Shown in pieces: positions 3,754 to 44,688 of a DNA stretch of 64,000 bases. Made by a program: the position numbers and the translations under genes. Under the pieces are notes generated by a model that was given only the letters and a program-made list of their open reading frames with translations, was not told the DNA's origin and did no database searches. Origin of the DNA: Cyanidioschyzon merolae (lineage: Eukaryota); the NCBI GenBank assembly GCA_000091205.1, contig AP006495.2; one strand, written 5' to 3'. Every line of letters starts with the position of its first letter. Positions within the stretch are counted from its first letter, which is position 1.

Positions 3754-4503
3754 CGAATAGCCAGGAAAAACTGTACATGGTGAATTGGTGTGGTGCTCGG
3801 GTCTTGCAGTATTGCTGAACCGTTCTGTATCAGCGTGTGAGCAGAGGCGGGAATCCGATTCTCCCTCTTGAACAGTGATGTTTCTCCATTGCATATAGAT
3901 TCCGTTTCCAGCACCAGGGCCTCACTGGGTGCCAGAGGATTCCCTCAGAACTTCGCTCGACACCAAGCCGGTGGACGCGATGGCAACAAGCGCCCGTCCC
4001 GGATGTTCAGCGAGGCGATCATTCGTAGGTGCAGAGTGTCCTTGAGCGCATTCTTGCCGGGGGAATCATGCTACAGCATGCCTCCGATCTTCGATAGCTC
4101 CGCAATCTGAAATTTGATCAGCTTGCTGTTCGCCATCTCGTGAATCTGGCTCTGTCTCATGCTCTTCTTCTGTATTCGTTTCACTGTGCACCGGTACTGG
4201 CGATGCACGTACATCGTCCTGAACGCATCTATGGGAATCGTGCAGCATCGATTCGTGCACTTGCTTGGTGCTGTCGCTGAGGGCACAGGATTAGACTCTT
4301 GGGGTGGTACACAGCCCCCGTAGACATAGGCTACCACAACGCGACGAGAGTAATCGGTCATTTCCTTGCTGGGAGCCCCCAGAGGGCTTTGGTGAATGCA
4401 CGCATCTTGCCTCTGTAGAACCGGAGCCCGTCGGGGGCGTCAGTGCAGTCGCATGTGCTGCTCATACAGGTCCTTCGCATGAGCCATGTGGACGCCTTCG
4501 TAC
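3754..4503 (+). repeat. 750-bp dispersed repeat, copy 1 (direct repeat partner at 18034-18780)
   Basis: Direct comparison of the two regions shows about 10 mismatches over about 750 bp. The common ends are AATAGCCAGG...CCTTCGTACT. There is no TG..CA terminus and no obvious TSD or TIR. Confidence 0.8.
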
Positions 4504-9963: not shown

Positions 9964-10821
9964 TCACGGCTGCAAACGCGTCATGCGCCATTGCATATCA
10001 TGGTCACTCGATTTCGAGTCCCTTTCGAAAAGCAGTCGATCGTGCAAACGGTTCGCGCGACCTTTCCAGAACTCCAAACGCAAAGCGTGAAGCCGATACC
10101 CGCCCCAATGTGGCGGTCGCGGTACTTCTCCATTCGCAAAGCGCTCCTCTACTTGGGCTGCTTGTCGCTCCAACGCTTCACGACTCGTAATTGGCCGAGA
10201 CTGCGCCGAGGCCCATGCACCCAGTCGCGAACCCAGAGGTCTCGATGCGAAATACGCATCCGAATCGGCAGTGGAGAGTCTCTCTACACTGCCTTCGACT
10301 CGGACGGAACGCTCTAGCTCCGGCCACCAGAATACGAGCGCTGCGCGAGGATTCCGGTCGAGTTCTTGCGCTTTCCTAGACTCGTAATTCGTATACCATG
10401 TGAACGTGGCTCTCTCGAGGTCGAGACCCTTGAGCAGAACCATTCGTGCAGCTGGAACCCCGTCAGGAGTCGCCGTTGCTAGCGTCATCGCGTTCGGCTC
10501 ATAACTCTTAACCCGAATCGCTTCATCAAACCACTTTTGGAACAGATGCATCGGCGAGCCTGCTGCACGAGCCTCCTCTTCGGTAAGCGGTGTATTCGAG
10601 TACTGTACTCGCAGTTTCGCGACCTCGTCGGTCATGGTAGCTCTCCAGCGCAAACTATGTGCCGTCCAACGAGCCAGGCGGGTACGCGTTTGTACTGTGT
10701 TGACGCACCTGCAAAACATCAAGCCTACGCCGCGCCTGAGTGCCTCCTGCAGCACTGGAGCGCCCTCTCTACAACGTGGCGTTTGACCACAGCGACGCCG
10801 CCCAGAGTCAGCGGAACGCAC
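9964..10821 (-). CDS. PNPO: Pyridoxamine 5'-phosphate oxidase (PNPO/PdxH)
   Basis: Strong family signature: LLKGLD...FTWYTNYESRKAQELDRNPRAALVFWWPELERSVRVEG...YFASRP...EVPRPPHWGGYRL...EFWKGRANRLHDRLLF. The true start is probably the internal Met at MTDEVAKL, since the track ORF begins at an alternative start upstream. Confidence 0.8.
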   Translation of the reverse strand: MRSADSGRRRCGQTPRCREGAPVLQEALRRGVGLMFCRCVNTVQTRTRLARWTAHSLRWRATMTDEVAKLRVQYSNTPLTEEEARAAGSPMHLFQKWFDEAIRVKSYEPNAMTLATATPDGVPAARMVLLKGLDLERATFTWYTNYESRKAQELDRNPRAALVFWWPELERSVRVEGSVERLSTADSDAYFASRPLGSRLGAWASAQSRPITSREALERQAAQVEERFANGEVPRPPHWGGYRLHALRLEFWKGRANRLHDRLLFERDSKSSDHDMQWRMTRLQP

Positions 10822-13800
10822 GTACGCCTCCTTCGTTGCTCGCTACGTGAAGAACCTGTGGCACCTCGAAGGGTACTGGAAACCGTCCTTCGACGAGTAC
10901 CTGGTTAGCAAGTTCTTGGCCTGCACATAAATCCCGTGTTTCCCACGGGTTGCTCTAGCGACTCGCAACGTGAAACTGTGACACTGATGCTGCAAATGCG
11001 TGTGCGGATCACGCACGCTGTCCCAAGTGCACGCATGCGCGTGCTGGACACGTGTGCATGATCGCCGCGTTGCACCTGCTTTTCTTCTCGATCTATCTAC
11101 CCATTTCGGTATAAAGTGCAAGGGCTCCACTTTGATGATGCAGAGGTGCACGTTTCAAGTTTAGGGATGTTCCTGTTGTGACTAACGCAGGCCTTTGTTG
11201 GCTTCTTCTTTGACAGTTTTCTTTTCAGTTTTTGCATCTCGGGCTTTGAATACACCGATCCCTCCTGTCTCCTTGTTACGGTTTCAGAAGTCGAAGGATG
11301 TTGATGGGAGCCTAAAAATGCTGTCCTCACAACTGCCGGCTATTGTTCAAGAATTCCGTGCACATGCAAACAATGCAACAGACGCTTCTCTTGCTTATAT
11401 CATCTTCTTCGTATGCGGCATCGGTGCGCACTTCGTAACGGTAACACTTGACTGTGGTCAGGTTCTCTCATGTATCCACCACATTCCGCCTTCGAGCTCA
11501 GCCCTGTGCCCCTTCAGCGCTTGATTCATCGCTCAGTATACGCCCTTAACTGATGCAGTAGGCTTGACTTGATGCCGTTCTCCGTTTCCGTATACGTCGC
11601 CGTACGCCGCGATCACGGGCTTCCTCTGAGCGATGCGACCGACGAGGACGCTGTGGGCTGAACACGCTAGCGCAAGTCGTCCCAGTCCATACAGGATTCG
11701 AGGAGTGCAATGTTTTCCGTGATGAAATGAGAATGGAAGGGAAAATCGAGGCTATTGCAAAGGTCGAGAAATCTCGATCCACGAACGCTCCGATCGTGGA
11801 AAGCGGTGGCGCACGCTCCGCTAGCGGCGATCGCTCTAATGACTGACGTCTGAACCCGAGACCCTTTTCTGCGCAAGCAGCAGAGACAGGAGCCTCTACC
11901 AGCATATCTTGTGAGAGGCATGGTGCTGCTGGTGTGGAATGCAGGGTCATCGATTGGGACAATGAGAGGAGAGTTTTTTTCTTTCGAGCAGGATCGATCA
12001 CTGGACGTGACAAGTTCAGGGAGCGTTCGGCACTAGCCTATGCGCAAGTCGTCAAGCGACGACGGAGAGTACTTTTCATCGTCTAGCCAGCCGGCGAATT
12101 CCTGCGTCCACTATTTTCCTTTAAACGGAATGTAGAAACCTTGAGGAACGCATGATTTGCGCATGATACTTGTGAGGAAAGGAACGGACTGGAGGCTAGT
12201 GCGAACGAATTGTATCATAATTTTATTTATTATACGAACTCTTGCTTGAGTGCATCGCGAATGATCCTGAATCCGGTGATATAAAGAGTTCTTTCAGCAT
12301 AGCGTTGAGAAAGCCACATCGAATACCTGGCTGCGAATCCTAAAACCATGTATGCATGAACGATGCTCGTTGCTACACTTCGACAGCTGAGGCCAGGCAT
12401 CTAAGAAAGGATCGGAAGAAATTCCAAGGCAGGAACACGGCAAGCAGTACGACGTCCCGTGTTAATCGGACAGGCGTATAGGCTCGATGCATTTCAGCGG
12501 ATATTCACCAGCGATAGGACTACTGCAGATAACCAGCGAAGAAACGCCACTGTTCCACAAGATTCATGTATGGTGTAGGATCAACGCTCCTTATGAAATG
12601 TCCTCCCGCGGTGCAACTGCTGATGATCACCAGAGAAGAACGCTCTCCGTAACTCCACGGAAACTTCCAAGCATCAGCAAGAGCCGTTCAGTGTTTGCGG
12701 CAGGTTCAAGACTTTGCTCGAGCAACTTGTCGGGTGCCGAGCCCAGCCTGCTGTCCGTACAGACATAGGACGGGATTGTGGTCCCTCTGCTATGATCGCC
12801 TTAACAACTGCCTCTCATCGTTCCGAATAAAAGGCACCTAGATCCGCAGATAGAAACTTGTATTTACGCTTGTTTCGCCCAATCTAGACGTTGCAACCGA
12901 CTGCACCAAGCTCTTCGTCTTGAAATCCCTCGAGCCGTCCATTTCATTATCGCATGATTCATTAGTGCGCAACTCGTCGCTTAGAGCATGCCGTGTGTAC
13001 CAGACGATCCATTCGCCGAAAATCGAGCGCCAAACCAAGCATTTACCGCTGACAACGACTCGCTCCATACACGCCGACGAGCCGTGCTGCACAGCTGTTG
13101 GTAGTGACCCGTCCAGCAAGATAACCACTCGGACGAAGGTTATCAGGACGACGATCTATATGGTCATTCGTCCCCGACCTGAAAAACACCGAGACATGTG
13201 CACCACCATGCGCTATCGAAGCACCGAAATAAAACAAGTTTCCTCTCCAGTGAGGACGCCTACCGCGAGCTCATAATCTCGACCACCGCCATCAGAACTT
13301 GCATGACCACGCCCTTCATCCTGAGGCATACCGCCCAGGGAATCCTTATGGTCTCGCTGACGCGAACACGCCAGCGTCGGTGCCACAGGACTGCACGCGA
13401 AACGGAACGAAGCGGACACGTGGTTGCTAGTCCCACGGCGCCAACGTACCCTTCAAATCACTTGGCTATCACTTCCTGCCGGATGTGTCCATGTCCTCCG
13501 TCTCTACCGCAACAGGTGCGCCAGTGTTGTGCTTGTCATGCATATTCATATCCAAGTACGCGCGCATGTCCTCGATCGAGTCGCGACCTGGAGCACCAGC
13601 GGAGCCAACGGTCGAAGAGCGCGGCGTCCGCGTTGGCGTCGGCGCACACTCTTCCCGTTTCGGACACCCCTCCCTGAGCCAGTCAAAAAAGGCTCCAGGT
13701 CCGACTTCATAGTGCCCATCACGCATCTTAAACCGTGTCACGAGACACATACTGAACACAGATACAAGCGCCAACGCCAAACTTGAACGTGTTGGTTGCT

Positions 13801-13883
13801 CGCTGATCGCAGGCGCCGCCACGTCAGTTGTGGCTGCGGCGGCGGCGCCGCCCCGACGGGCTACCCCCTCCAACGGCGATCTC

Positions 13884-14076
13884 ATCGATAGGACGTACGA
13901 AACGACCAGAATATCCGAGATGAAGTATAGGTAATGTAACTTGGGAGTAGGGTGTTTGATGGATACCTCACCGCGCACTGAAAACACACACACAAAAAAA
14001 GTAAGAAAAGAAAAATGCGCATAATCGGAGAACGCTGGCCTATGGAAACGGTTTGTCTATGGAAAAAAGAAAGAAA
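13884..14076 (+). mobile_element. SINE-like short retroposon, copy A (5'-truncated), flanked by 12-bp target-site duplication AACGGCGATCTC
   Basis: The element ends in the A-rich tail GGAAAAAAGAAAGAAA. Perfect 12-bp direct repeats lie at 13872-13883 and 14077-14088. The body is about 85-90 % identical to copies at 20961-21165 and 40781-41005 in reverse orientation. Confidence 0.6.
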
Positions 14077-15695
14077 AACGGCGATCTCAGTGCGCAGCGC
14101 CCGGATGCCGTTGCACGGCGTTGCGGCCCCGAGCGCAGACAAGTAGGTGTTGGTGCGAGAGTCTGGGGCAGACTCGACATTCAGCGTACATGTATGTGGA
14201 TTCTTGGATTGGACAGAGATCGCTGACGGAGATACTGAGATGATCTTGTTCGGTATGTAAATCTCGTGGCATTTGTTGGTGAAGTGTAGGCAATTTTCAG
14301 TTTACCAGGAACTGTGCTTCGGGAGTCATCAGGGTCGATCGCATAACTCGATATCCGTAGACTGTGTTCGAAGTATTGTGGAGGCTGTCTGATTTTGACG
14401 GGAGCAGCATGGACCGCAAGTCTGCGCTCTATGCGTAAAATTCTATTGGCAGGAGCTCGGGAAGGAGCAAGAAACATCGCTTGACGCTCTCGAGTCGCGC
14501 ATACAAATCCGGAATCAGTGGAGCCTCGCCCCGTCACTAATGCTTGGCGGTCTCTTGCTTGGTTACCGACCGTCGTCGCACAAGCAATGAAATCGAGTCA
14601 GCGTCTCCAGTTCTATCGTAGAGAAGATGCAGCATAGCTGCGCTCTTTGCTAAGGGGGCAATCCATCGTAGACCGGGGCGCTCAACATCTGCAGGTGCTT
14701 GATCGATCACTCCCGGTGGAGGAGAATGTCGAGACTTTCGAAATATCGAGCGGGCACGGCACAGGCAATGTCTCGTGCTCTCCTGGGACCCGCTTGAATT
14801 TGTTTCCGTGCTTCAGCTTGATGTAATGAGCGACACGAGAGTCGAGGTTCATCTAGATTTGATTCGTGTCCATCGTGCTGGAAAGGCCCCGAGCATCTGC
14901 GTCAAGCCGAAGAAACCCGCCTTCATTCACCTTTACGGATCTTGTCCTTTGGTATGTCCTATCGTTCTTCCGGGTCAGAGATGATCGAATTCATTAGTGC
15001 TCGGCATGAGACTCGAGCCGATGGTGTTCTCCATGTCGTAACGGTTCCTCGCGGTACAGGCGATCTCGCAAGCGTAGAAAAGATCGTATCAAGGAACGAG
15101 CGCGCGCTTATGGCCTCTTCGCTCATCCATGCTTTCGCCTTTTTGTACCAAAGTCCTTTCGGTGTCTATACGAAATGAAACAAACGATAAAGTGAACTGG
15201 GTCAAGAGTCGCGAGAGAGATTCCTTAGAACGTGGACCTTCCCGAGGGCGCTGGCTTCCCCTCGCGTTCAGTCGCCCTTGAAGACTCCATAAGCGAGACG
15301 ACGGACTTTATCTATTCGCGATGACGAACTTGGCGGAGAGAGGTCAGTTTAAATTTGGTGACGATGAATTGCGCTTGGGCCATTTCTTCGGGCTCGTCGT
15401 CTCCTCTCTCTCTCACCCGAAGCATCGTGCAGCACATTTCCTCTGAATTCCAGAGCATGTGCTACCCTTATACCGATGGAATCATTTTTCTCTCCTGGTG
15501 AAGCGCACCCTCAACCGCTAATTCGCTCAAGAGATCCGAAAATTCGATACACCTTTTCGTTGCTACAGGGCGAATGCACCAGTTTGAAACATGCACGACT
15601 GGGTTCCTGCATGCCCAAGTGCCATCTCGCCACCACGCTCAGGCGCTAAGGTCGCGCTGGCGTGTGTATAGCGCCCCTCGTATCGGTAAGCAAGT

Positions 15696-16139
15696 ATGTA
15701 CGTGGCGCTTATCGCACAGTGGCAGCGACGAATACTCGTGGACACAGCACTTCGGAGAATGTCGTCTTGTACACTGGGGACACCTCGAAGAGACGTATCT
15801 CGTGAAGCCCGTTGTGTGCCGTGCGAGGGCATCGGGTCGGCGCTCAGCGCTGAGCAAGTGGCGGAGTTGGTCGCCACCAAGACACCCCAGTGGACGACAA
15901 CTCCTGACACAAAACGTCTGCATCGCACTTGGGTTCGTCCAAACTTTAAAGATGCTATGGAATTTTTGAACCGTATAGCGGATGTTGCGGAAAAGGAAGG
16001 ACACCACCCGGACCTGCACCTCACGAACTGGAACCGTGTTCGCGTGGAGCTCTGGACGCACGCTCTGGGCGGTCTCACCGAGAACGACTTTATATTGGCT
16101 ATGAAAGTCGATGAGATAGCAGAGCAAGGTCAAAAGTAG
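15696..16139 (+). CDS. PCBD: Pterin-4-alpha-carbinolamine dehydratase (PCD/DCoH) with N-terminal extension
   Basis: The C-terminal ~100 aa carry the PCD signature EGHHPDLHLTNWNRVRVELWTHALGGLTENDFILA. The N-terminal ~50 aa may be a targeting peptide or upstream of the real start. Confidence 0.7.
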   Translation: MYVALIAQWQRRILVDTALRRMSSCTLGTPRRDVSREARCVPCEGIGSALSAEQVAELVATKTPQWTTTPDTKRLHRTWVRPNFKDAMEFLNRIADVAEKEGHHPDLHLTNWNRVRVELWTHALGGLTENDFILAMKVDEIAEQGQK

Positions 16140-16603
16140 GCCATGATTTGGAGCAAGAGCTATTGCGAGGGTGCGGAAGCGACCGGAGTTGTTTACGTTG
16201 CGGCGCTCGATGAGGGCGATGAAACTGGAGTTTCCGCTCGCGTTGACGTAGTAAGGTCGAGGAGCGCGCACCAGTTGGCTTCGGGCGCGCTTTCATGGCG
16301 GGGTTTCCCAGCGCTCGCAGGCGATCGTCCGGTGCCTGGTAACGTACCGCTTTTGCAGACGTCGTTGGCCCGGCGAGCTGCAGGCTTCAATGGACCGCGA
16401 TGGTCATCGCAACCAGGCCGCAAGATACACACTAATGGGAACCACAGTTTACGAATTGACCTCAAGGGGGATTCCTGCGTCACCTGATCAAGCTAGAGAG
16501 ATCTTTCCTACGATCAAATGGGCCCCAGAGGAGCTCCTTTCCTTCATAGCTTGCGCTTGTAGCGTCTTTTTGCAGCCATACTAAACGAACCTTTGAGGGA
16601 AAC

Positions 16604-17734
16604 TTATGCCGGAATTCCACCAGGCGGATCCCATTTTGAACCAAGCTCGCTTAGTTTCTTGTGGGCATTTGCATAGTCCTCGAAGAACTTGGCCTCATCG
16701 GTGGCATAGATCTTCACGTACTTGTTGAATTCCGGATCTTCGACGAGAGCCTTGTCTGTGACGAGCTTCAGAAGCTCCGGATCAGCATTCGGATCCATGA
16801 GCACCTTGAAGTACATGTTGTTGAACTGGAGCCAGTCCGGTGTCCAGGAGCTGCCTCCCTTGGTCACACCGCTCACTGCGCGCGTATACTTGGTGCCCTC
16901 CTCACCGGCGCCGAAGCCACTTCGGAACTTGTACGCGCGTCCAATGGTATGGCCACCGCTCAGTGCAACGATCTCCTGGTCATTGAAACCCATCCGATAG
17001 AAAACCCTACGCAAATGCGCGGCAGCGTCCTCCTTGTCGGGCGCGGGCTCGTTAGGATTCTCACCCTCGGCCTTGTGGAACGGTGGACCGCCCGCCGGGA
17101 GTCGACCCTCTGGTGGCACCTCATTCTCCGACTGGGCATCGACACGGCCGAAACGGAACGGAATCTTGGGCCCGCCTGCAACCTCGATCGACAGAACACT
17201 TGCGTACTGAATAAGATCAGCCCATCCTACGTTTGGGTACTTCTCTTTGATTGGTTTCAACAGGTTCAGAGCGCCCGGGAGACCAACATTGCCGCCATGC
17301 TGGAGTTCCTTATTGAAACGAATAGAGCCGTTCGCACCGCCCGTTCCCAGGCGTGCGTCGTAGTCTCCCGAGTCGTGCCACGCCAAGCGTACCAGGATCG
17401 GCATCGCTTTGGTACGCTTGATCATTTCAACAAGATCGTTCCGAACAGAAGTCATCGTCTGTGTGTCGATTGCCATGGTCACAAGCCTTCGCGTCGGTGC
17501 CTGGGTGTTGAGTCTCAAAACTGCCGCGCCGCGGTACGCTTCACGTTGCACAAAATAAGAACTGAATCGAACTTTGTTCGCAGAACGCACTGAAACACTG
17601 CTGATTCTTCTAACCTGAATAGAGCGCAACGAAGGAAAACTTACAGCGTTTGAAAAAGCAATCTGTCCTGAATTCATCGAGCTACGGATACCACTGTACC
17701 CGTTACGTAAAAGTGAGCACGACAGGATACGCAT
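16604..17734 (-). CDS. Class I haem peroxidase (ascorbate peroxidase / cytochrome c peroxidase type) with long N-terminal presequence
   Basis: Distal motif RLAWHDSGDYD, proximal-His region GGHTIGRAYKFRSGFGAGEEGTKYT, and a W...DP C-terminal domain are present. About 100 aa of N-terminal Ser/Arg-rich extension suggests organellar targeting. Confidence 0.8.
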   Translation of the reverse strand: MRILSCSLLRNGYSGIRSSMNSGQIAFSNAVSFPSLRSIQVRRISSVSVRSANKVRFSSYFVQREAYRGAAVLRLNTQAPTRRLVTMAIDTQTMTSVRNDLVEMIKRTKAMPILVRLAWHDSGDYDARLGTGGANGSIRFNKELQHGGNVGLPGALNLLKPIKEKYPNVGWADLIQYASVLSIEVAGGPKIPFRFGRVDAQSENEVPPEGRLPAGGPPFHKAEGENPNEPAPDKEDAAAHLRRVFYRMGFNDQEIVALSGGHTIGRAYKFRSGFGAGEEGTKYTRAVSGVTKGGSSWTPDWLQFNNMYFKVLMDPNADPELLKLVTDKALVEDPEFNKYVKIYATDEAKFFEDYANAHKKLSELGSKWDPPGGIPA

Positions 17735-18033
17735 GAAGTGTAGCTCGCGATGTCGCGATGCCGCCCTGCCGAAGCGTTCGGAAGGCGGCGGGATCGCTGT
17801 GCTCGCGCATCTGCAGCCATTGGTGCAACGCGTACGCCGCGATGCACGCGCCAGGTACAGGTGTGCGCTGGCGATCGGCGCGCATCCGCTGGCGTGATCA
17901 GATTCGTCTCGAGGCTGATCGCCGCGCTGTGCCGCATCGCCGCTGGGGTATGTTGTGAAGCGCGCGCGCTCTGTACCCCGCTTATGAATGCGCGATCATA
18001 TCGCATGCTGGATCATCTTTCTTGTCGACCAAT

Positions 18034-18780
18034 AGCCAGGAAAAACTGTACATGGTGAATTGATGTGGTGCTCGGGTCTTGCAGTATTGCTGAACCGTTC
18101 TGTATCAGCGAGTGAGCAGAGGCGGGAATCCGATTCTCCCTCTTGAACAGTGATGTTTCTCCATTGCATATAGGTTCCGTTTCCAGCACCAGGGCCTCAC
18201 TGGGTGCCAGAGGATTCCCTCAGAACTTCGCTCGACACCAAGCCGGTGGACGCGATGGCAACAAGCGTCCGTCCCGGATGTTCAGCGAGGCGATCATTCG
18301 TAGGTGCAGAGTGTCCTTGCGCGCATTCTTGCCGGGGGAATCATGCTACAGCATGCCTCCGATCTTCGATAGCTCCGCAATCTGAAATTTGATCAGCTTG
18401 CTGTTCGCCATCTCGTGAATCTGGCTCTGTCTCATGCTCTTCTTCTGTATTCGTTTCACTGTGCACCGGTCCTGGCGATGCACGTACATCGTCCTGAACG
18501 CATCTATGGGAATCGTGCAGCATCGATTCCTGCACTTGCTTGGTGCTGTCGCTGAGGGCACAGGATTAGACTCTTGGGGTGGTACACAGCCGCCGTAGAC
18601 ATAGGCTACCACAACGCGACGAGAGTAATCGGTCATTTCCTTGCTGGGAGCCCCCAGAGGGCTTTGGTGAAAGCACGCATCTTGCCTCTGTAGAACCGGA
18701 GCCCGTCAGGGGCGTCAGTGCAGTCGCATGTGCTGCTCATACAGGTCCTTCGCATGAGCCATGTGGACGCCTTCGTACTA
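18034..18780 (+). repeat. 750-bp dispersed repeat, copy 2 (partner of 3754-4503)
   Basis: See copy 1; same orientation, 14.3 kb apart. Confidence 0.8.
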
Positions 18781-20960
18781 CATGGAGCTTACATCATGTC
18801 CCGCCAGTTCCATTCTTCTGTGTCAGAATTGCTAGGGCACGACGGGTACGATCCAAAGAGGGTGCGTCCCAGGAAGCGCTCGGCATTGACCCGCGGGAGG
18901 TATTTGAGGTTGTTTTCAATTTATCATTGACGCTCGCGGCTTACATTTGGTGATCGCTGACGTTGCTCGGCGTTGTGCCAAACTATACAGGGAAGCCTGT
19001 ATAAAGATTTCGGATCAAAAGATCAGTCCGTCAGACGTCTTCTATCCCGATCATCTGTTGTCCTGCGTTGCGAAGGTGAGATCGAAAGATATCCAGAGAA
19101 ATATGGATAGATGGCAGCGCTGCGTCCGGATTTCATGCGATCAGTTGCTTGACGATGTGGGCCAAAGCGAGAGAAGCAGGCGAGCGTTCCTCAAATGAGA
19201 AGCCACGCGATCTTTCCTAGCGTCCATCAGCTCGCGTAAGAAAGGTGAACCCGCAGATGCGTTTTCGTAGGGAGGCCATGCCAACGGTTTCAGGTTGATC
19301 TCTCAGCCCCGATAGGTTTTCTTTCTGGTTCCTCGTCGTCCTGCGTTCTGTACAAAGTTGCTGCTTTTGCCCCATGAGTCCTGCACCTTCTACTTCTCCG
19401 CGTTCGCCCATACTTGGTGGAGAATCATGAACGTATACCCATACTCCATAACCGTTCGTTTTTCTTGGGATTCTGATGCGCCGTAAGGGCGGAATCATTG
19501 AAGCGCCACTGCTCTATTGATGTATTTACGGTCCCGTAACTACTTTTTCGTGATCCCCGTTCCGACCGTGTCCATAAACCGCAGCGCGCTTGTCCTCTGC
19601 CTCGCGCATACGACGAGCAACACTGCAGATCCGGGCTGGTCAGGGCAGGGAACAACTCGACCAAGAAGGATGCCATGGATGTGTTCGAGTCGTCCGTTGA
19701 TCCGTAAGCGTCGAAACGGTCTCTGACAACAGAGAAGACGCCTGCGACTCGATTCAACCCAGGAGCATACACTGGCACCGAGAGCACTTCAACTCGAACC
19801 GCAACTGCATGCACCGTTCCCGCTTGTGTGAGTGATAGAAAGCGGCGTTATGTAAGAGCAGGCGAGAGGCGTATGGAAGGAAAAGTCCTGAAGTGCTTCG
19901 ACGAAGCGTGAGGTGATGAACGATCTTACCCGATTGGCGATTTGGCGGCAACTATACGATAGCTACGACGCTATGACTGTTTTTTTAGTTACGGTCGCTC
20001 GTTTCACCTCTGCAAACAGCGGTTTGTTCCTTGTTGAGAACACGTGCACAAGTCTGCGATTTCCCTGGGACGAGGTCCCTTCGAGTGAGACGGAGAACCG
20101 TCTCAGATATAGGAAGCATTCGCGTTTCTGTACGAAATCGATGGCGTGCTTTTCAGCACGGGACCGTCCCGTACGGAAGCACGCTCTTTCATCATGTCCA
20201 TGTGTTTCTCTCGATAAGCATTGGTATCAGCGGTGTGGAAACTCCACACGCTTTGGCTTCTTTGGAAGAAGTTCGTTGAGAATGTTTGGAGTGAATTGGG
20301 TTGACGAGGAGACAGGCGCGAAAATAGAGTTTCATAGGTTCTGTGTTTTGGGTACACGACGCGTAGGATAGAGGACTACCAGGAAGGTGGTTCCTCCACC
20401 TGCTCATCGTTCAATGAAAGACTCGCACATGTAAGACCTTTTTTCGCAATCTAGCAGTCGCAGCATCAATTAGCTCCAAGACCTTCCTCCGATCTACACG
20501 ATGCATTGTTTTTGTGAAACATGCTCGGGTGATACAGAAACATACACAAAATGGACGTCATTGTATATGCGTCCCCGAAGGCACTGCTCGATTCGGAGCA
20601 TACCAGAAGCGTGTCGTTCTACCAGAATCGACTCGGCCATATGGAGGTTTCCTCTGAACACTCCATATATTACAGCATTGGCCTTGGATCAATACAGTCG
20701 ATGCTGCGGCTAGCGCGCATACACGCTGCAACCTTCGCTCGCGAACAGCGTTGCGACCGATCCACCGTCGGTATCATCGCATGCACGCAAACCGATTGGC
20801 TTTGAATGGAATACACTACGAGAGACTGAACTGACTCGCCTGGATGTGCAAACGCTTCTGGTTAGCGGCGCTCCGACTTGCCCAGGAATGTGTGGTCTTA
20901 TCGAAACTTTGTCGCCTGAGAGCACTGCAGGACCCGGAGAAAGCGCTTCAATCGATTCAA

Positions 20961-21165
20961 TTTTTTATTCATTGACAGAACGTTTCCTTAGGCCAGCGTT
21001 CTCCGATTATGCGCATTTTTCTTCTCTTACTTTTTTTGTGTTTTTTCAGTGCGAGGTGTGGTATCCATCAGCTCCCTACCTCCATGTTACATTACCTATA
21101 CTTCTTCTCGGATATTCTGGTCGTTTCATACGTCCTATCGAGTGTGTGCCTAGTGCCTGCCGAAA
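20961..21165 (-). mobile_element. SINE-like short retroposon, copy B (full-length relative to copy A; sense on minus strand, poly-A at the 20961 end)
   Basis: Reverse-complement alignment with copy A and direct alignment with copy C at 40781-41005. The T-run at 20961-20966 corresponds to the A-tail on the sense strand. Confidence 0.5.
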
Positions 21166-21364
21166 GCGACCGCACCGGCGCCTAAAGCGCCGGTGCGTCA
21201 ATCGATGCAATACTGGCATTCGCGCCCTGGCCCCGATCGATGACCCGAAGATCCGCCGCCCGCGACATCCGGACGCACCCGCTATCGGTGCGCGCATGCA
21301 TCATCGGCGCATATCGAGACGTGAACCCTATATATATCAATTCTAGTGCCTAACTGAACGAAAC

Positions 21365-21465
21365 GGGGTGCTGGTCTATCGTTACAGGGGATCTGGTGGT
21401 ATGATTTGCCGTTAGGGAATTCTCCAACATCGGCAAGGTCCCGGGTTCAATTCCCGGGCACCCCC
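21365..21465 (+). tRNA. tRNA-like pol III unit, about 101 nt, isotype undetermined
   Basis: Canonical T-arm CCGGG-TTCAATT-CCCGG, a 7-bp acceptor pairing GGGGTGC/GCACCCC, a discriminator, then an immediate T5 run at 21467-21471 (pol III terminator). The 3' half folds as an anticodon stem TGCCG/CGGCA with loop TTAGGG..(A), a 12-nt insert, and variable loop AGGTC. This is consistent with an intron-containing tRNA with anticodon AGG (Pro), but the 5' half has about 15 extra nt and I cannot fold a standard D-arm. Confidence 0.45.
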
Positions 21466-21957
21466 ATTTTTGCCCGTCTTGAACAAGTCGGTCTTAATAT
21501 CGATACGCGACCTCCTTGAGCTTGTCCCGAAGCGTGCGTCTGAGAACCGTGCTTCTGCTGCTGCACGAGTGCTGCGCACAACGGAGCTGTGCATCTGGGC
21601 TGCTGCTGTGCGCGTGCATCGCTCCTGAAAAGCTGCTTGACTGGGCGCCTTGAACAGGCGACTCTAGACTCGCGGGTCAGCGCGAAGCCGGAGGACCAAG
21701 GAATCTGGTGCGGGACGCGCCGCTGCTGGAAAGCGACGCTGCAGTCCTGCGCCGAACGCGTGCGGAACACTGGTCGTTGTTCACGTGGTCGTCCCGTCGC
21801 GAGGAGCGCGCGCTGAAGTTTGATTTGACGCCACCGCACGGCAAACGCCGTTTCGGCTCGACCTAGCTTAGATCGTAGACGGGGCAGCGCCGGCATTGAG
21901 CCCCCGGAACTGACGCAAGGTGCAAAGAACCGAGTCGTCCGAGTTGACGTCAGTCCA

Positions 21958-24090
21958 GTGTCTGCAACTGGCGAGTCTTGTGCGACTTACTCGCAACGCT
22001 CTCCAAAGATGCCCTCGCTGGTTTCTATTCCTGAACCGCAACGCACTGGGAGTGAAGCTTCGGATAAGGCGTGGTCCGCAACGAGCTCCCTGGTGGACTA
22101 CGTTTGTCGTCTGGATGAACGCAGCATCGACATGCTATTCACGGCCTGCGATTTGACGGTGTTCGGAATCCTCCGGGCTTTGCCTCCGCTTGCGAAAATT
22201 ATCTTGTTCCGTTTTCTCGCACTGAGCGACTATGTGCAAGAAATACCTGCACATATTGTGACTGCCTGGATCGCGGACCCTCGCACCGAGGAGCGCAACG
22301 ACCCCGTCTGGGGCCATACATCGAGAACTAGTGCCAAATCAACGTCTGCCTTCCCCGACTCGGAGCGCGAACGAAACCTAATCGTATCCCGTATCCTGCA
22401 CGTCCTTACCAGGCTGCGTTTTCTGCGCCGAACGGTGCAGGAGCAACCATCGAACGGCACATCCCAGGAGCTCGTGACCTATGCCTTACCACCAGCAATC
22501 CGTGAACATCTCCTGAGGTACCTCTGGGCAACCACAAATTCGCAAGAGAATCTCGAGGGGGCATGCACGCCCCGGAGAAGCAGTGCCAGCTCTGTTGATG
22601 CCTCAACACGCGCATCATGGATTCGCCTTCTCGAGCCGTTTCAGCGCATAGCGAACGCCAGCGATGGTCGAATACCAACAAGGCTCACAGCACCGCAACT
22701 CCGAGAGTACACTCGTCATGCATGGGAGCACGTTTTACACTTTGTGATTGGCATCCCCGTGGCGGAGCCTGAAATCAGGCAACCCACGGGTCCTGAACAC
22801 ACTCCAGAACACGTCATGGAGCCGCCGTCTGACGAAGTCATCGAAGCACTGCTGAGTTTGGGAGTCAGCGAGCAAGTCGGCTCCGATGGGATGCGCATCA
22901 CTGAACGAGGTTTCTCGTACCTTCTCCTCGATATTCATGCACAGTTGTGGGCCCTGCTCGAAGCATACATGGAAAACTGGGATGAAGCGCGTGGTGATCG
23001 TCTCGAACTCTTCGATCTGTTGTTCCGTCTGGGTTTCTCTGTGCCCGGACACATCTACGATGGCGGCGATCCGAGCCTGTCCGCAGCACAGTGCCGAATG
23101 CTCGGCTTTCTTGCGGAAATCGGCCTCGTATACCTCATGGAAACAGAGCAAAGCAGACAAGATGGCGACAACGATGAACAGCTCGTGATTCGCAGGCGCC
23201 GCCCGGGCCGGCCCCTGTACCTGCACGCCACGTCAACGAAAGACAGTCGTCGCAGCCCGGATGGACAGGCACGCTTCACATCGTCGCCGCTGCAACCACT
23301 TGGCAGCCTGATGGATGCCAACGACCGGGTGGCAACCAACATCAGTGCGGCTGTGCCCGGGAAAAACGATTTGACCTTCGATCGTCGGGTGGCTGCGCTC
23401 TTGAAGAAGCACTCGTCCAGGGTGCTGTTTTCGCCAACTCCGCTGGGTACACAGCTCATGATGGGGCCCGCCCTCGATCCTGTGGTCGCTCGTGAGCAGC
23501 CTGATGCAGTGCCCCGGCATGCTGAGATCCTCATCGAATCCGAACCTGTACTTGCAACTCCATCTGCAGGCAGGAGACCAAGCTTGGGGCGGTCCATCCT
23601 GAGCGGATCGCCATTCCAAATCATTGTGGAGACGAACTTCCGCCTATATGCCTATGCTGCTTCCTCGTTCCAGGTGGCATTGCTTTCGCTCTTCACGCGG
23701 ATCCTCTATCGCATGCCGGGCGTTGCCATTGGGGTCATCACGCGAGACTCAGTGCGACGCGCTCTCAAGTGCGGCATCACCGCCAAACAGCTGCTGCACT
23801 TTCTAGGTATCCATTCCATGGAGGGCAAAAGCGTCCCTTTTAACGTGCATGACCAAATCCTGCTCTGGGAATTGGAGCGCAAACGGATCCAGGCGTATCC
23901 TGGGGTCCTCCTGGAGGGCTTCGAGCCCACCTCCGACGGTCGCGCCTTTTTCGACCAACTCCAGGAGTACACGGTAGAACTTGGAGCCCAACAGTGGTGT
24001 GATCGAGTGCGCCAGTTGTTGGTTGCAGACGCGTCGTCCTTTGAAAGGCTACGAGAGTGGATTCGGAGGCAGGCGCAGACGCTTTCTTGA
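21958..24090 (+). CDS. GTF2H4: General transcription factor IIH subunit p52 (Tfb2 family)
   Basis: The C-terminal block HDQILLWELERKRIQAYPGVLLEGFEPTSDGRAFFDQLQEYTVELGA matches the p52 signature (VVDQIRLWELERDRL...). The 710-aa protein has N-terminal low-complexity extensions. Confidence 0.65.
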   Translation: MSATGESCATYSQRSPKMPSLVSIPEPQRTGSEASDKAWSATSSLVDYVCRLDERSIDMLFTACDLTVFGILRALPPLAKIILFRFLALSDYVQEIPAHIVTAWIADPRTEERNDPVWGHTSRTSAKSTSAFPDSERERNLIVSRILHVLTRLRFLRRTVQEQPSNGTSQELVTYALPPAIREHLLRYLWATTNSQENLEGACTPRRSSASSVDASTRASWIRLLEPFQRIANASDGRIPTRLTAPQLREYTRHAWEHVLHFVIGIPVAEPEIRQPTGPEHTPEHVMEPPSDEVIEALLSLGVSEQVGSDGMRITERGFSYLLLDIHAQLWALLEAYMENWDEARGDRLELFDLLFRLGFSVPGHIYDGGDPSLSAAQCRMLGFLAEIGLVYLMETEQSRQDGDNDEQLVIRRRRPGRPLYLHATSTKDSRRSPDGQARFTSSPLQPLGSLMDANDRVATNISAAVPGKNDLTFDRRVAALLKKHSSRVLFSPTPLGTQLMMGPALDPVVAREQPDAVPRHAEILIESEPVLATPSAGRRPSLGRSILSGSPFQIIVETNFRLYAYAASSFQVALLSLFTRILYRMPGVAIGVITRDSVRRALKCGITAKQLLHFLGIHSMEGKSVPFNVHDQILLWELERKRIQAYPGVLLEGFEPTSDGRAFFDQLQEYTVELGAQQWCDRVRQLLVADASSFERLREWIRRQAQTLS

Positions 24091-24327
24091 AACAGCGTCT
24101 TTCGGCTGCCGATTATTTGATCCGCGCCTCTGTTCCTGCCTGGTGCAAGCAGGTCGACGTAACCGACTGGATGCACAGATGCGGAACCCAGCGAGCGACG
24201 CGGGTGTCTTGCAGCGCCCGGCCGTTGCTCAGACAAGATGATCGGCAGCGGGGCGTACTCGAGCGCCAGTGTACAGCTATTGCAAGCGCAGGTTCTGCGG
24301 GAAAGTATGGGTCATGGCGGGCGGTAC

Positions 24328-39635: not shown

Positions 39636-40742
<1,107 letters not shown>

Positions 40743-40780
40743 CTACGCACTCGCCCCGCGGCGAATGCCGTCCAATCGAT

Positions 40781-41005
40781 GTACGATTTTTTTTCCTGAC
40801 AAAACGTTTACGTGGGCCAGCGTTCTCCAATTGTGCGCATATTTCTTTTCTTTCTTTTTTTGTGCTCTTTTTTCAGTGCGCAGTGAAGTATCCATCAAAC
40901 GCCCTACCTCCATGTTACATTACCTATACTTTTTCTCGGATATTCTGGTCGTTTCATACGTCCAATCGTGTGCGCCTAGTACCTGCCCAAATCATCCGTC
41001 TTTGC
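40781..41005 (-). mobile_element. SINE-like short retroposon, copy C (sense on minus strand; T-run at 40781-40789 is the A-tail)
   Basis: Collinear with copy B over about 225 bp, including the shared 5' segment GGCAGG(C/T)ACTAGGC(G/A)CACAC that copy A lacks. Confidence 0.5.
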
Positions 41006-41318
41006 GCTTGAACCGCTGGGGCAGATAGTTCATAGAACTAGAACGGTTTTTCTACAGCACAGAGGGCGTCGGCTCGAGGCGTGCTTCACCCGACGTAGAA
41101 TCGGGTCTCGTCGTCAGTTTGTGCTCAGACAGTCTGCGGATGCAGGCTTGCCTTCGCTGCACGACACGCTGGAGAAACTTGGCTGTTCGGATATATCCTG
41201 GGAGCCGCCTCTCTCCTTCGTGACCATGTGTGGGATGCGTTGTTGTCGGTTGGCAACCCGGGTGTAAATCGGCGTACGATGCTGCGGTTGGAAGTACAGT
41301 AGCGGCGGTGAACGCGCC

Positions 41319-43512: not shown

Positions 43513-44688
43513 TGTTTTTTATCCGCCAGCCGGCGACACTGTGCGTCCGTGGTCCTCCACTTGCATTTCTATGCTTTTATATTTTTGAAAACGGACCCGC
43601 TTCGAACACTTCTGGTATATACACCGAAAAATCACTTGAATATACTTGCTTCAGGCTTGAAATACTATTGGACAGAGATTTATACTTTGCTACGACTTCG
43701 ACGCAAATACATCTTGCCCGATACAGCAACAGTTCAACTAGTGGTCAGGATCGTGTTTCCCTTCAACGTCGAGATGCATGCCGTACCCCATGCATGCTAG
43801 ATATGGAGGTACACGTATCGACAACGCTATAGGAGAAAAAGAAAAGAACGAACCGCTAGCTAGCAACCAGATGACAATTTCTTCCCCCCTATGCTAAACC
43901 TAAAAGGCGGCAAAAAGTTTTCCGTATTTTCGAAAGCTTACCTTCTAGGCAGAAGGTCACGCGTGCCAGCCGGATCTGCTTCGCTAGCGCGTCATGCTCT
44001 TCCCAGTGGTGGGTGCTGAGGCGCGACTTGGGCAACTCGCCCGCAACGCGGTTTACTCTGCCACTCGGAGCGAGTATGCTGTGTCTGGCCGTCGCACTGG
44101 GAGCAATAGTGCCCTAATATATCGCTTCGCGCTTTAATGGGAAGTATGTCTGTCTGCGCGGTTTGCAGGCTCCCGGAATGATAATTTATCCTGATTCCGC
44201 CTCGGATGAACGGTGCCTCGAGGTGGCGCCCCCAGTGGTATAGCAAAGCCTTTCTGTCTCTATGATGCATCTGCACCAGCGGTATACGCGTTACGGCTGG
44301 TGCTCTCTACAGGTTCGACGCACAATGGATTGTAGAAAACGATCAGTACGCCCGAGAAGGAGTCCAGGTTATGGAACCTGGAAGTAAGGGGATCGATGGA
44401 TGCTCCACCGCGCGCTTATACCAGGCGCACAGTCGGGGAACACAGCCCAGAGTCACGGAGCTGTCAATTAGAACAAGGCATCGAACGCGGCCGGCGGCGG
44501 TTGGGCGCGCTCGAAATGCATTTGCATCAACTAGCATGAATGGGGAACGTACGTTTGCCCGTGAAAATCTCGTTACTGGGATAGGATGCTGGTGATCTCG
44601 TAGAGTGCCTTGGAATCCACAAGTGAAATGCTGCGTTATTCACAAAAAAACTATTGTCGTTCTGTTTAGTTTGAGTCTGTGAGCTGGA

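What the first reader, a model, noticed from the sequence alone, without database searches (positions are those of the whole stretch)
13872..14088. SINE-like retroposon family (3 copies) with a textbook 12-bp target-site duplication
Copy A (13884-14076) is bounded by perfect direct repeats AACGGCGATCTC and ends in an A-rich tail. Relative to copies B (20961-21165) and C (40781-41005) it lacks about 22 nt at its 5' end, consistent with 5' truncation. These are the hallmarks of LINE-mediated retroposition. Copies B and C are inverted relative to A and keep the shared 5' head GGCAGG(C/T)ACTAGGC(G/A)CACAC. I could not recognise A/B boxes, so the promoter type (tRNA, 5S or other) is open. Copy C sits immediately 3' of GAPDH, and copy B lies 200 bp from the tRNA-like gene. 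The ORF-track hits inside these copies (for example 13882-14142, 20846-21346, 40718-41011) are artefacts.
Basis: seen in the sequence. Interest (0 to 1): 0.55.

Follow-up and report, generated by a model that had tools for sequence, protein, structure and literature searches.

The report
Truncated LINE tails, not SINEs

Summary
The window is nuclear DNA of Cyanidioschyzon merolae 10D. The three copies, the perfect 12-bp duplication around copy A and the A-rich tails are real. The SINE reading does not hold.

A public metagenome scan gave about 55-60 independent insertions of the same sequence. In many of them homology runs upstream for up to 2.9 kb. That upstream sequence encodes a non-LTR reverse transcriptase, 85-89% identical over the 64% of the query aligned to the annotated C. 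merolae "retroelement". The roughly 205-nt "SINE" is the end of that LINE's ~400-nt 3' UTR.

Re-annotated copies:
- A: 193 nt.
- B: 236 nt, with its own 14-bp duplication.
- C: 479 nt, still carrying the last 24 codons of the LINE ORF.
- A fourth, diverged copy at 44190-44470.

The head GGCAGG... is not a terminus, and copy C lies upstream of GAPDH, not 3' of it. No tRNA, 5S or 7SL similarity was found.

Family-wide, target-site duplications are common (18 of 47 have exact repeats of 9 nt or more, against 0.8% in the null). Insertion prefers A|TCG-like sites.

One point stays open. At least 12 insertions with unrelated flanks, mostly of one 3'-UTR variant, start at the same nucleotide 297 nt from the tail. 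This may be a 3'-UTR-only non-autonomous lineage. Interest is low to moderate.

The parts
13872..13883 (+). Copy A, 5' target-site duplication AACGGCGATCTC
   Evidence: Read directly and checked by script. It is an exact 12-nt match to 14077-14088. No exact repeat of 12 nt or more occurred in 2,162 null flank pairs.
13884..14076 (+). Copy A: 193-nt 5'-truncated LINE 3'-UTR end, with tail ...TGGAAAAAAGAAAGAAA
   Evidence: 88.5% identical to the last 181 nt of the LINE in L081. The same insertion is present in metagenome haplotypes L010, L096, L124, L134 and L135.
14077..14088 (+). Copy A, 3' target-site duplication AACGGCGATCTC
20948..20961 (-). Copy B, 3' target-site duplication ATTGAATCGATTGA
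   Evidence: It matches 13 of 14 positions of 21198-21211, with an exact 9-nt core ATCGATTGA.
20962..21197 (-). Copy B: 236-nt 5'-truncated copy carrying the 'type 2' 3'-UTR variant. It begins inside the hairpin CGCACCGGCGC-TTTAG-GCGCCGGTGCG.
   Evidence: BLAST aligns 20961-21197 (239 alignment columns, 85.8% identity) to the type-2 LINE 3' end in L007. Alignment with about 50 family members is.
21198..21211 (-). Copy B, 5' target-site duplication ATTGCATCGATTGA
40774..40787 (-). Copy C, 3' target-site duplication ATCGTACATCGATT
   Evidence: It matches 12 of 14 positions of 41267-41280.
40788..41266 (-). Copy C: 479-nt 5'-truncated LINE copy (type-1 3' UTR). It lies 129 nt upstream of the GAPDH ATG, in the same orientation.
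   Evidence: 88% identical over 475 nt to L081 positions 2411-2880. Present in all haplotypes L001-L006.
41189..41260 (-). Remnant of the LINE ORF C-terminus inside copy C (RVANRQQRIPHMVTKERGGSQDIS)
   Evidence: tblastn against the L081 ORF C-terminus gives 75% identity over 24 aa, E = 1.8e-8. The translation was checked.
41267..41280 (-). Copy C, 5' target-site duplication ATCGTACGCCGATT
44190..44470 (+). Fourth, diverged homologue of the same 3' UTR, from another LINE lineage and without the internal A-rich stretch. It lies about 220 nt upstream of the mitochondrial-carrier gene.
   Evidence: BLAST gives 68% identity to L081 and L007. The sequence read aligns with the 'family 2' copies. The end near 44470 was judged by eye.

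Best explanation
Copies A, B and C, and the diverged copy at 44190-44470, are 'dead-on-arrival' 5'-truncated insertions of the Cyanidioschyzon merolae non-LTR retrotransposon (LINE).

Anatomy, as shown. The full element is about 4.1 kb. It encodes a reverse transcriptase followed by a degenerate CCHC-like motif. It ends in a ~400-nt 3' UTR that finishes ...AAACGTTTTGTCAATG(A)6-9.

Mechanism, inferred from the standard target-primed reverse transcription model:
1. An element-encoded nuclease nicks the target, preferentially at A|TCG-like sites.
2. The exposed 3' OH primes cDNA synthesis on the A-rich 3' end of the LINE RNA.
3. Synthesis or 5'-end joining stops prematurely at different points. 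By BLAST extent these are 181 nt (A), 241 nt (B) and 470 nt (C) from the tail, which correspond to annotated lengths of 193, 236 and 479 nt.
4. A staggered second-strand cut gives the 12-14-bp target-site duplications.

The copies are non-coding relics. The ORFs called across them are artefacts.

Shown: collinearity with the LINE, variable 5' ends, common 3' end, A tails, duplications and target bias. Inferred: the enzymology, including the nuclease. No nuclease domain could be recognised in the degenerate LINE copies available.
For: (1) Organism and known family. Window proteins are identical to C. merolae 10D entries BAM81010-BAM81023. That genome is reported to hold 26 non-LTR elements (PMC1955436).

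These resolve into 66 flank clusters, about 55-60 of them distinct insertion sites.

(3) Homology continues upstream of the 205-nt unit in a stair-step, reaching at least 2.9 kb.

(4) The upstream part encodes the motifs FIDFQKAFD...GLRQGDP...FADD. Pfam RVT_1 scores E = 2.4e-23. It is 85-89% identical, over the 64% of the query aligned, to proteins named 'retroelement, alive [C. merolae 10D]'. The nearest solved structures are R2 (1e-12) and LINE-1 ORF2p (1e-6).

(5) Copy C includes the last 24 ORF codons.

(6) Target-site duplications: 18 of 47 insertions have exact flanking repeats of 9 nt or more, against 0.8% of mismatched pairs.

(7) Tails are A6-9. The first target base after the tail is T in 35 of 48 cases (p = 4e-10), C follows in 26, and G is at the third position in 21.

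(8) The full LINE of about 4.1 kb is bounded in L138 and L139.
Against: - No orthologous empty site could be recovered. All close haplotypes carry A, B and C, and the more distant lineage is not alignable in the intergenic DNA.
- No APE or RLE endonuclease domain was found in the LINE copies examined.
- The complete LINE could not be fetched from the 10D reference itself.
- The 5' ends are not randomly distributed. At least 12 insertions with unrelated flanks (17 by BLAST extent alone) start within 293-298 nt of the tail. Simple stochastic truncation does not predict this.
Confidence: 0.88

Rival explanations
1. Part of the family, including copy B and possibly copy A, descends from a discrete ~297-nt non-autonomous retroposon rather than directly from full-length LINE RNA. 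This unit would consist only of LINE 3'-UTR sequence (the 'type 2' variant, starting CCTCGAGCCGACGCC). It would have its own defined RNA 5' end, from an internal promoter or a processing site, and would be copied in trans by the LINE reverse transcriptase. That makes it a SINE-like element without a pol III-gene-derived head. B would then be a 5'-truncated copy of that unit.
For: - By BLAST extent, 17 hits start at 293-298 nt from the tail. Twelve or thirteen of them are main-family insertions with unrelated flanks. At least 7 of those begin exactly with CCTCGAGCC, and 8 have exact duplications of 8 nt or more.
- The type-2 variant is almost confined to copies of 298 nt or less: 23 short against 3 long. 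Type 1 shows the reverse, 1 short against 20 long (Fisher p = 3.6e-9). Among copies of at least 293 nt the test gives p = 4e-6.
- A second, diverged 3'-UTR lineage ('family 2') also has several copies that start at the same position.
Against: - The 297-nt unit is entirely collinear with LINE sequence.
- Type-2 UTRs also occur attached to LINE ORF sequence (L007, at least 1,471 nt) or in a longer copy (L065, 421 nt). Both type-2 sub-variants have such longer representatives.
- Chimeric UTRs exist (L100, L101, L111).
- No promoter-like or tRNA, 5S or 7SL similarity was found.
- The unit start shows no similarity to the LINE 5' end.
- A small hairpin (ACCCGA..TCGGGT) lies just 5' of the start, so a reverse-transcription stop or RNA-structure boundary could give the same pile-up. 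A smaller pile at 178-182 nt coincides with the base of a predicted 3' domain.
Confidence: 0.3
2. A classical SINE. This would be a short pol III-transcribed element with a tRNA, 5S or 7SL-derived head beginning at GGCAGG(C/T)ACTAGGC and only a LINE-derived tail.
For: Short size, A-rich tail and target-site duplications. B and C share the sequence GGCAGG....
Against: - GGCAGG... is internal. About 50 copies continue upstream of it.
- The whole unit, not just the tail, is LINE 3' UTR.
- Copy C contains ORF codons.
- ARAGORN finds nothing.
- Rfam finds nothing at gathering thresholds in the window. At E up to 10 on a full 297-nt unit and on copy C there are only chance-level hits or none.
Confidence: 0.03
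3. The copies are retained because the 3'-UTR module has been co-opted as a cis-regulatory element or structured RNA near genes. Copy C sits 129 nt upstream of GAPDH and the diverged copy about 220 nt upstream of the mitochondrial carrier, both in the sense orientation.
For: - Position and orientation relative to the two divergently transcribed genes.
- Copy C is fixed in all six haplotypes sampled.
- One hairpin keeps its pairing through correlated changes between UTR variants: 88% paired against 75% when permuted, reached by 0 of 300 permutations.
Against: - In a gene-dense genome, intergenic spacers are simply where insertions survive.
- The covariation is equally explained by the needs of retrotransposition, namely recognition of the 3' UTR by the reverse transcriptase.
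- Folding energies are not better than shuffled controls (z = +1.4 and 0.04).
- The divergent syntenic lineage L131-L133 has no copy in the 21 kb around the APX and Tfb2 genes, where copies A and B lie.
- No expression data were available.
Confidence: 0.04
4. Dispersed segmental duplication or recombination, not transposition.
For: Other repeats lie next to copy C. A 300-nt pair that is 98% identical occurs elsewhere in the window.
Against: Each copy has unique flanks, its own short target-site duplication, a common 3' end with an A tail, and a different 5' end. About 55-60 independent sites show the same pattern.
Confidence: 0.01

Closest known systems
Non-LTR 'retroelements' of Cyanidioschyzon merolae 10D (26 RT-related class I elements; Nozaki et al. 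2007, PMC1955436; GenBank proteins named 'retroelement, alive')
   Same: Same organism. The reverse transcriptase upstream of the unit is 85-89% identical, over the 64% of the query aligned, to those proteins. The element length of about 4.1 kb matches the ~4 kb assumed in that paper.
   Different: The paper counts only RT-bearing elements and gives transposons as 0.7% of the genome. It does not mention the many short 3'-end fragments described here, their target-site duplications, target preference or the 297-nt class. I could not fetch the reference-genome elements to check their 3' ends directly.
5'-truncated LINE-1 insertions of mammals (textbook target-primed reverse transcription products)
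   Same: Common 3' end, A-rich tail, variable 5' truncation, variable-length target-site duplications, and microhomology at some 5' junctions. The RT is detectably similar to LINE-1 ORF2p.
   Different: - The tail here is a short, uniform A6-9 run.
- The target preference is A|TCG-like rather than TT|AAAA.
- The RT scores better against R2 than against L1.
- No APE domain was recognised.
- The 5' ends pile up at one nucleotide.

The L1 properties quoted are from my own knowledge.
LINE-derived short non-autonomous retroposons without a pol III-gene head, such as RIME (from ingi) and SIDER in trypanosomatids, and HAL1 (from L1)
   Same: If the 297-nt class is an independent lineage, it would be a short retroposon made only of LINE sequence and mobilised by the LINE. 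HAL1 as a LINE-derived non-autonomous family is mentioned in PMC3627910. An internally deleted derivative also exists here: the first ~1.76 kb of L139, which spans an unrelated neighbouring repeat plus the LINE 5' part, joined to the last 566 nt of the LINE. It is seen at two sites, L015 and L047.
   Different: RIME and SIDER combine 5' and 3' parts of the parent, and HAL1 keeps ORF1. The 297-nt unit is 3' UTR only. Independence from the LINE transcript is not shown. The RIME and SIDER details are from my own knowledge.
tRNA-derived SINEs with LINE-derived tails (for example UnaSINE1/UnaL2, SmaI/RSg-1, MIR/L2)
   Same: They depend on recognition of a LINE 3'-end sequence or structure. The 3' UTR is conserved across diverged LINE lineages here (68% identity).
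   Different: No tRNA-like head, no A/B boxes, and no boundary between a 'head' and a LINE-derived tail. The named SINE/LINE pairs are recalled from the literature and were not tested here.

Membership tests
SINE (classical short interspersed element) | Internal pol III promoter inherited from a tRNA, 7SL or 5S gene (A/B boxes) in the 5' head | tested here: not met
   ARAGORN finds no tRNA in the window. Rfam gathering thresholds give nothing. Rfam at E up to 10 on a full 297-nt unit (L058) gives only chance hits at E of 3.6 or more, and on copy C gives none.
SINE (classical short interspersed element) | A defined 5' end shared by full-length copies, distinct from any LINE sequence | tested here: not met
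   The proposed head GGCAGG... is internal. Homology continues upstream into LINE 3'-UTR and ORF sequence. A, B and C have three different 5' ends.
SINE (classical short interspersed element) | Non-coding and much shorter than the autonomous partner, with only the 3' tail shared with a partner LINE | tested here: not met
   The entire unit is LINE sequence. Copy C carries 24 LINE ORF codons.
5'-truncated copies of a non-LTR retrotransposon (LINE) | Collinear with the 3' end of an element that encodes a reverse transcriptase | tested here: met
   Alignment of 8 long copies. RT motifs and Pfam RVT_1 at E = 2.4e-23. Window copies align to L081 and L007. PDB hits to R2 and LINE-1 ORF2p.
5'-truncated copies of a non-LTR retrotransposon (LINE) | Common 3' end with an A-rich tail; 5' ends at many different positions | tested here: met
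   5' starts range from 140 nt to at least 2,880 nt from the tail over about 60 sites. Tails are A6-9. Caveat: there is a non-random pile at 293-298 nt.
5'-truncated copies of a non-LTR retrotransposon (LINE) | Target-site duplications of variable length flanking each insertion | tested here: met
   A has 12/12, B 13/14 and C 12/14 matching positions. Family-wide, 18 of 47 have exact repeats of 9 nt or more, against 0.8% in the null.
5'-truncated copies of a non-LTR retrotransposon (LINE) | The autonomous element encodes an endonuclease (APE-type or restriction-like) | tested here: inconclusive
   Pfam finds no endonuclease domain in the frames upstream of the RT in L138 and L139. Only a short 'SWNICG' motif reminiscent of APE N-termini is visible. 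The copies are frameshifted and degenerate, and no intact master copy was obtained.
5'-truncated copies of a non-LTR retrotransposon (LINE) | Presence/absence polymorphism with a single-copy target at the empty site | tested here: inconclusive
   All close haplotypes are filled. No empty alleles occur among the fetched loci. The divergent syntenic lineage L131-L133 has no copy in 21 kb, but its intergenic DNA cannot be aligned.
C. merolae annotated retroelement family | RT closely related to the proteins annotated as 'retroelement' in strain 10D | tested here: met
   P0086 and P0091 ('retroelement, alive [Cyanidioschyzon merolae strain 10D]') are 85-89% identical to the query over the 64% of it that aligns.
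Stringent-type LINE 3'-end recognition (conserved 3'-UTR structure) | Conserved, covarying RNA structure in the 3' UTR | tested here: inconclusive
   RNAalifold on 39 sequences predicts two domains. Hairpin H2 keeps pairing through correlated changes: 88% paired against 75% when permuted, reached by 0 of 300 permutations. The long-range helix closing the 3' domain is nearly invariant, which is uninformative. Single-sequence folds are no more stable than shuffles. The sequences are related, so the permutation counts are not probabilities.

The most novel reading that the evidence does not exclude
The 'type 2' copies represent a previously undescribed 297-nt retroposon in Cyanidioschyzon merolae. 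It would be made solely of LINE 3'-UTR sequence and would have a nucleotide-precise 5' end (CCTCGAGCCGACGCC) set by an internal promoter or an RNA-processing site. It would carry no tRNA, 5S or 7SL head and would be mobilised in trans by the LINE. In that case one of the most transposon-poor free-living eukaryotic genomes hosts an unconventional SINE-like parasite, with on the order of 100 copies.
Probability: 0.3. Interest if true: 0.5.

Novelty: new member of a known kind. Interest (0 to 1): 0.3.

Why it matters
Mostly this is a correction. It removes a false SINE call and three spurious ORFs, and it supplies exact boundaries for four LINE fragments in a model genome that is often described as nearly free of transposons.

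The published figure of 0.7% counts only RT- or transposase-bearing elements. The many short 3'-end fragments seen here mean the retroelement footprint is under-counted, and so is the number of past retrotransposition events.

Three by-products could interest transposon specialists:
- an A|TCG-like insertion preference;
- a 3' UTR conserved across diverged LINE lineages;
- a nucleotide-precise 297-nt class.

The organism is genetically tractable, so these could be tested directly. None of this changes a major question in the field.

Tried and rejected
- The viral-contig scan with the 18-mer found nothing.
- The two annotated 10D retroelement proteins are not on record for locus retrieval, so the reference LINEs could not be read. 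Metagenome contigs usually break inside the LINE. Two contigs finally gave the 5' part.
- Empty-site searches failed. Close haplotypes are all filled. The divergent lineage aligns only over a 211-nt conserved block 134 nt from the copy A site. No joined-flank alleles occur among the fetched loci.
- Rfam at permissive thresholds and ARAGORN gave no pol III-type head.
- My own eye-matches to A/B boxes (TGTGGTATAG, GGTTCAAGCGC) were rejected. The T-arm-like segment does not pair as a tRNA, and Rfam sees nothing.
- Pfam found no endonuclease domain (one search failed on a bad frame).
- The unit start has no similarity to the LINE 5' end, which argues against a duplicated internal promoter.
- Thermodynamic stability tests were negative.
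- The pile-ups of 5' ends at 566-568 and at 1,088 nt (L039, L073) were rejected as truncation hot spots. In L015/L047 and in L039/L073 the 'upstream flanks' are identical within each pair, so these are rearranged or internally deleted LINE variants rather than independent 5' ends. L090 (1,072 nt) has a different flank.
- Literature searches found no description of SINEs or of these fragments in C. merolae within the searchable library. Repbase could not be consulted.
Full report
OBSERVATION

The three copies exist. They are 85-93% identical to each other, with BLAST E-values of 1e-57 to 1e-74. Copy A (13884-14076, + strand) is bracketed by a perfect AACGGCGATCTC at 13872-13883 and 14077-14088, and it ends in an A-rich tail. 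I built a null by pairing the 5' flank of one family member with the 3' flank of another. None of 2,162 such pairs had an exact repeat of 12 nt or more, and only 0.8% had 9 nt or more. The duplication is therefore not chance. The boundaries and context given for B and C are not correct, as shown below.

ORGANISM AND CONTEXT

Seven window ORFs were looked up. Six are identical to proteins of Cyanidioschyzon merolae strain 10D (among BAM81010-BAM81023) on an 866,983-bp chromosome. GAPDH is on the minus strand (39636-40658). Copy C therefore lies upstream of its ATG, 129 nt away and in the same orientation, not 3' of it. ARAGORN and Rfam at gathering thresholds find nothing in the window.

THE FAMILY ELSEWHERE

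An 18-mer from the most conserved block (ACGACCAGAATATCCGAG) found nothing in viral contigs. 111 of the 126 loci held at that point carry the element. Clustering by unique 3' flanks gives 66 clusters, about 55-60 of them distinct insertion sites.

It continues upstream in a stair-step of different lengths. In eight or more loci it runs for at least 1.4 kb, and in one for 2.9 kb.

The upstream sequence is coding:
- It has the reverse-transcriptase motifs FIDFQKAFD, GLRQGDP..LFN and FADD. Pfam RVT_1 scores E = 2.4e-23.
- It has a degenerate CCHC-like motif, HCPCYRDEIPETLTYLGLQCPRWKQER.
- It is 85-89% identical, over the 64% of the query aligned, to two GenBank proteins named 'retroelement, alive [Cyanidioschyzon merolae strain 10D]'.
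- Among solved structures its best matches are R2 proteins (1e-12) and LINE-1 ORF2p (1e-6).

The ORF stops about 400 nt before the tail. Two contigs bound the whole element at about 4.1 kb. This agrees with the ~4-kb RT elements, 26 in number and all non-LTR-like, reported for this genome (PMC1955436). The roughly 205-nt 'SINE' is thus the terminal half of a LINE 3' UTR.

RE-ANNOTATION OF THE WINDOW COPIES

- Copy A: 13884-14076 (+), 193 nt, 12-bp duplication. By BLAST extent it starts 181 nt from the LINE 3' end.
- Copy B: 20962-21197 (-), 236 nt. Its 14-bp duplication, ATTG[C/A]ATCGATTGA, lies at 21198-21211 and 20948-20961 (13/14).
- Copy C: 40788-41266 (-), 479 nt. Its 14-bp duplication, ATCGTAC[GC/AT]CGATT, lies at 41267-41280 and 40774-40787 (12/14). 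It contains the last 24 codons of the LINE ORF, RVANRQQRIPHMVTKERGGSQDIS (tblastn E = 1.8e-8).
- A fourth homologue at about 44190-44470 (+) is 68% identical. It belongs to a second 3'-UTR lineage without the internal A-rich stretch.

Three copies with three different 5' ends, one common 3' end and three separate duplications is the signature of 5'-truncated LINE insertions.

FAMILY-WIDE HALLMARKS

- Of 47 insertions with both junctions available, 18 have exact flanking repeats of 9 nt or more (up to 20 nt), against 0.8% in the null. Several more have imperfect duplications.
- Tails are short A6-9 runs after ...TTTTGTCAATG.
- The first target base after the A run is T in 35 of 48 cases, against about 29% expected (p = 4e-10). 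C follows in 26 and G is at the third position in 21. This points to an A|TCG-like insertion preference.
- B and C follow this pattern (ATCG... within their duplications). A begins AACGG.

THE 5'-END DISTRIBUTION AND THE OPEN QUESTION

5' ends are scattered from 140 nt to at least 2,880 nt from the tail. By BLAST extent, 17 hits fall at 293-298 nt. Twelve or thirteen of these are main-family insertions with unrelated flanks. At least 7 of those begin exactly with CCTCGAGCC, and 8 have duplications of 8 nt or more.

The 3' UTR exists in two variants that differ mainly in a hairpin region. Type 2, which copy B carries, is almost confined to copies of 298 nt or less: 23 short against 3 long. Type 1, which copy C carries, is the reverse: 1 short against 20 long (Fisher p = 3.6e-9). 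Among copies of at least 293 nt the test gives p = 4e-6.

This is hard to explain by random truncation. It suggests a 297-nt, 3'-UTR-only unit with a defined RNA 5' end.

Against an independent lineage:
- The unit is wholly collinear with the LINE.
- Type-2 UTRs also occur joined to LINE ORF sequence (L007) or in a longer copy (L065).
- Chimeric UTRs exist (L100, L101, L111).
- No promoter-like similarity was found.
- A small hairpin sits just 5' of the start, so a structural stop to reverse transcription is a live alternative. A minor pile at 178-182 nt, which includes copy A, coincides with the base of a predicted 3' domain.

The apparent piles at 566-568 nt and at 1,088 nt (L039, L073) are not independent truncations. 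In L015/L047 and in L039/L073 the upstream sequences are identical within each pair. L015 and L047 are an internally deleted derivative: the first ~1.76 kb of L139, which spans an unrelated neighbouring repeat plus the LINE 5' part, joined to the last 566 nt of the LINE. L090 (1,072 nt) has a different flank.

RNA STRUCTURE

RNAalifold on 39 diverse UTRs predicts two domains. The 5' domain has two hairpins. The 3' domain is closed by pairing of the conserved core (GATAGGACGTATGAAACGACCAG..TCCGAG) with the 3' end (TCGGAGAACGCTGG...AAACGTTTTGTC).

Only hairpin H2 and a 4-bp helix show correlated changes beyond column-shuffled controls: 88% against 75% paired, reached by 0 of 300 shuffles. The long-range helix is nearly invariant and therefore uninformative. 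Single-sequence folds are no more stable than shuffles (z = +1.4 and 0.04). I treat the structure as tentative. If real, it most simply reflects recognition of the 3' UTR by the LINE reverse transcriptase.

SINE MEMBERSHIP

The defining features fail:
- No tRNA, 5S or 7SL similarity appears, even at E up to 10 on a complete 297-nt unit and on copy C.
- The family has no 5' end that is distinct from LINE sequence.
- One window copy contains ORF codons.

The tRNA-like gene 190 nt from copy B is real: 21387-21464, with T-arm CCCGGGTTCAATTCCCGGG, acceptor pairing, an insertion in the anticodon region and a downstream T-run. It has no sequence relation to the repeat.

WHAT COULD NOT BE SHOWN

- No empty site was recovered. 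All close haplotypes carry A, B and C. No joined-flank alleles occur in the fetched loci. A more divergent syntenic lineage (L131-L133) has no copy anywhere in 21 kb, but its intergenic DNA is not alignable.
- No endonuclease domain was recognised in the degenerate LINE copies.
- The reference-genome LINEs could not be retrieved.
- Genome copy number can only be guessed at roughly 100.

LITERATURE

Nozaki et al. 2007 report 26 non-LTR elements, 8 class II elements, and 253 copies of a 3.2-kb repeat. A ~3-kb C. merolae repeat, CMe-1A, was later described as carrying Fanzor1 (PMC3627910). From the ~3-kb size, and because Bao and Jurka also list a Fanzor in shrimp white spot syndrome virus, I infer it is the same repeat as Nozaki's 3.2-kb one, but I did not test this. 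No paper in the searchable library mentions SINEs or these 3'-end fragments in this alga.

VERDICT

The best explanation, at confidence 0.88, is ordinary 5'-truncated LINE insertions made by target-primed reverse transcription. The ORFs called across them are artefacts of non-coding 3'-UTR sequence. The only unusual element is the nucleotide-precise 297-nt class, with about 0.3 probability of being an independent 3'-UTR-only retroposon. Overall interest is 0.3.

Noticed in passing
window 21387-21464 (+): A tRNA-like gene. It has the acceptor stem GGGG../..CCCC, the T-arm CCCGGGTTCAATTCCCGGG, an insertion of about 36 nt in the anticodon region, and a TTTTT run just downstream. ARAGORN and Rfam gathering thresholds both miss it. 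Rfam's mascRNA (tRNA-like) model aligns to it at E = 1.5. This fits the intron-containing tRNA genes known in C. merolae, which I recall from memory.
   Followed up: partly
window 41281 to about 43764: Directly 5' of copy C lies another interspersed repeat. Window 41281-41680 matches 15 or more unrelated loci at 77-82%. Window ~42727-43764 matches L139 1-1055 at 77%. Pfam finds nothing convincing in its 298-aa and 301-aa ORFs. It may be the 3.2-kb Fanzor1-type repeat (CMe-1A/TE-N2_CMe) reported for this genome, but this was not verified.
   Followed up: partly
L015 672-2993; L047 1-769: An internally deleted derivative occurs at two different genomic sites. It joins the first ~1.76 kb of L139, which spans an unrelated neighbouring repeat plus the LINE 5' part, directly to the last 566 nt of the LINE. 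This suggests a non-autonomous deletion variant that has itself been copied.
   Followed up: partly
L138 2968-6764; L139 1262-5358: The LINE copies that reach the 5' end show only a short 'IGFASWNICG' motif where an APE endonuclease would start, followed by lysine-rich low-complexity sequence. Pfam finds no endonuclease domain. Either the domain has degenerated in these copies or the element is unusual.
   Followed up: partly
L081 5130-5400, L108 1324-1439, L040 10074-10147, L097 2569-2655, L060 1531-1800, L022 3245-3328 and others: A second short family ('family 2') is homologous to the LINE 3' UTR but lacks the internal A-rich stretch and has a different 3' third. Several of its copies start at the same CGAGCCGACGCC position as the 297-nt class.
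   Followed up: partly
window 3756-4055 and 18031-18330: A 300-nt direct repeat pair, 98% identical and 14.3 kb apart. It is unrelated to the LINE.
   Followed up: no
window 12412-12471, 26299-26358, 57859-57918: Three copies of a 60-nt motif (TCGGAAGAAATTCCAAGGCAGGA...), 60-82% identical. The nature of the motif is unknown.
   Followed up: no
window 48876-49167; 42214-42363; 53908-54206 with 61490-61788: Two tandem duplications: 146 nt x2 at 97% identity, and 75 nt x2 at 87%. There is also a 299-nt inverted repeat pair at 70% complementarity, 7.3 kb apart.
   Followed up: no
L131-L133 compared with window 10800-24100: A divergent syntenic lineage has the APX and Tfb2 genes only 1.8 kb apart, against 4.2 kb in the window. 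It carries no LINE fragment in the 21 kb examined. Much of the extra intergenic DNA in C. merolae 10D here may therefore be repeat insertions.
   Followed up: partly
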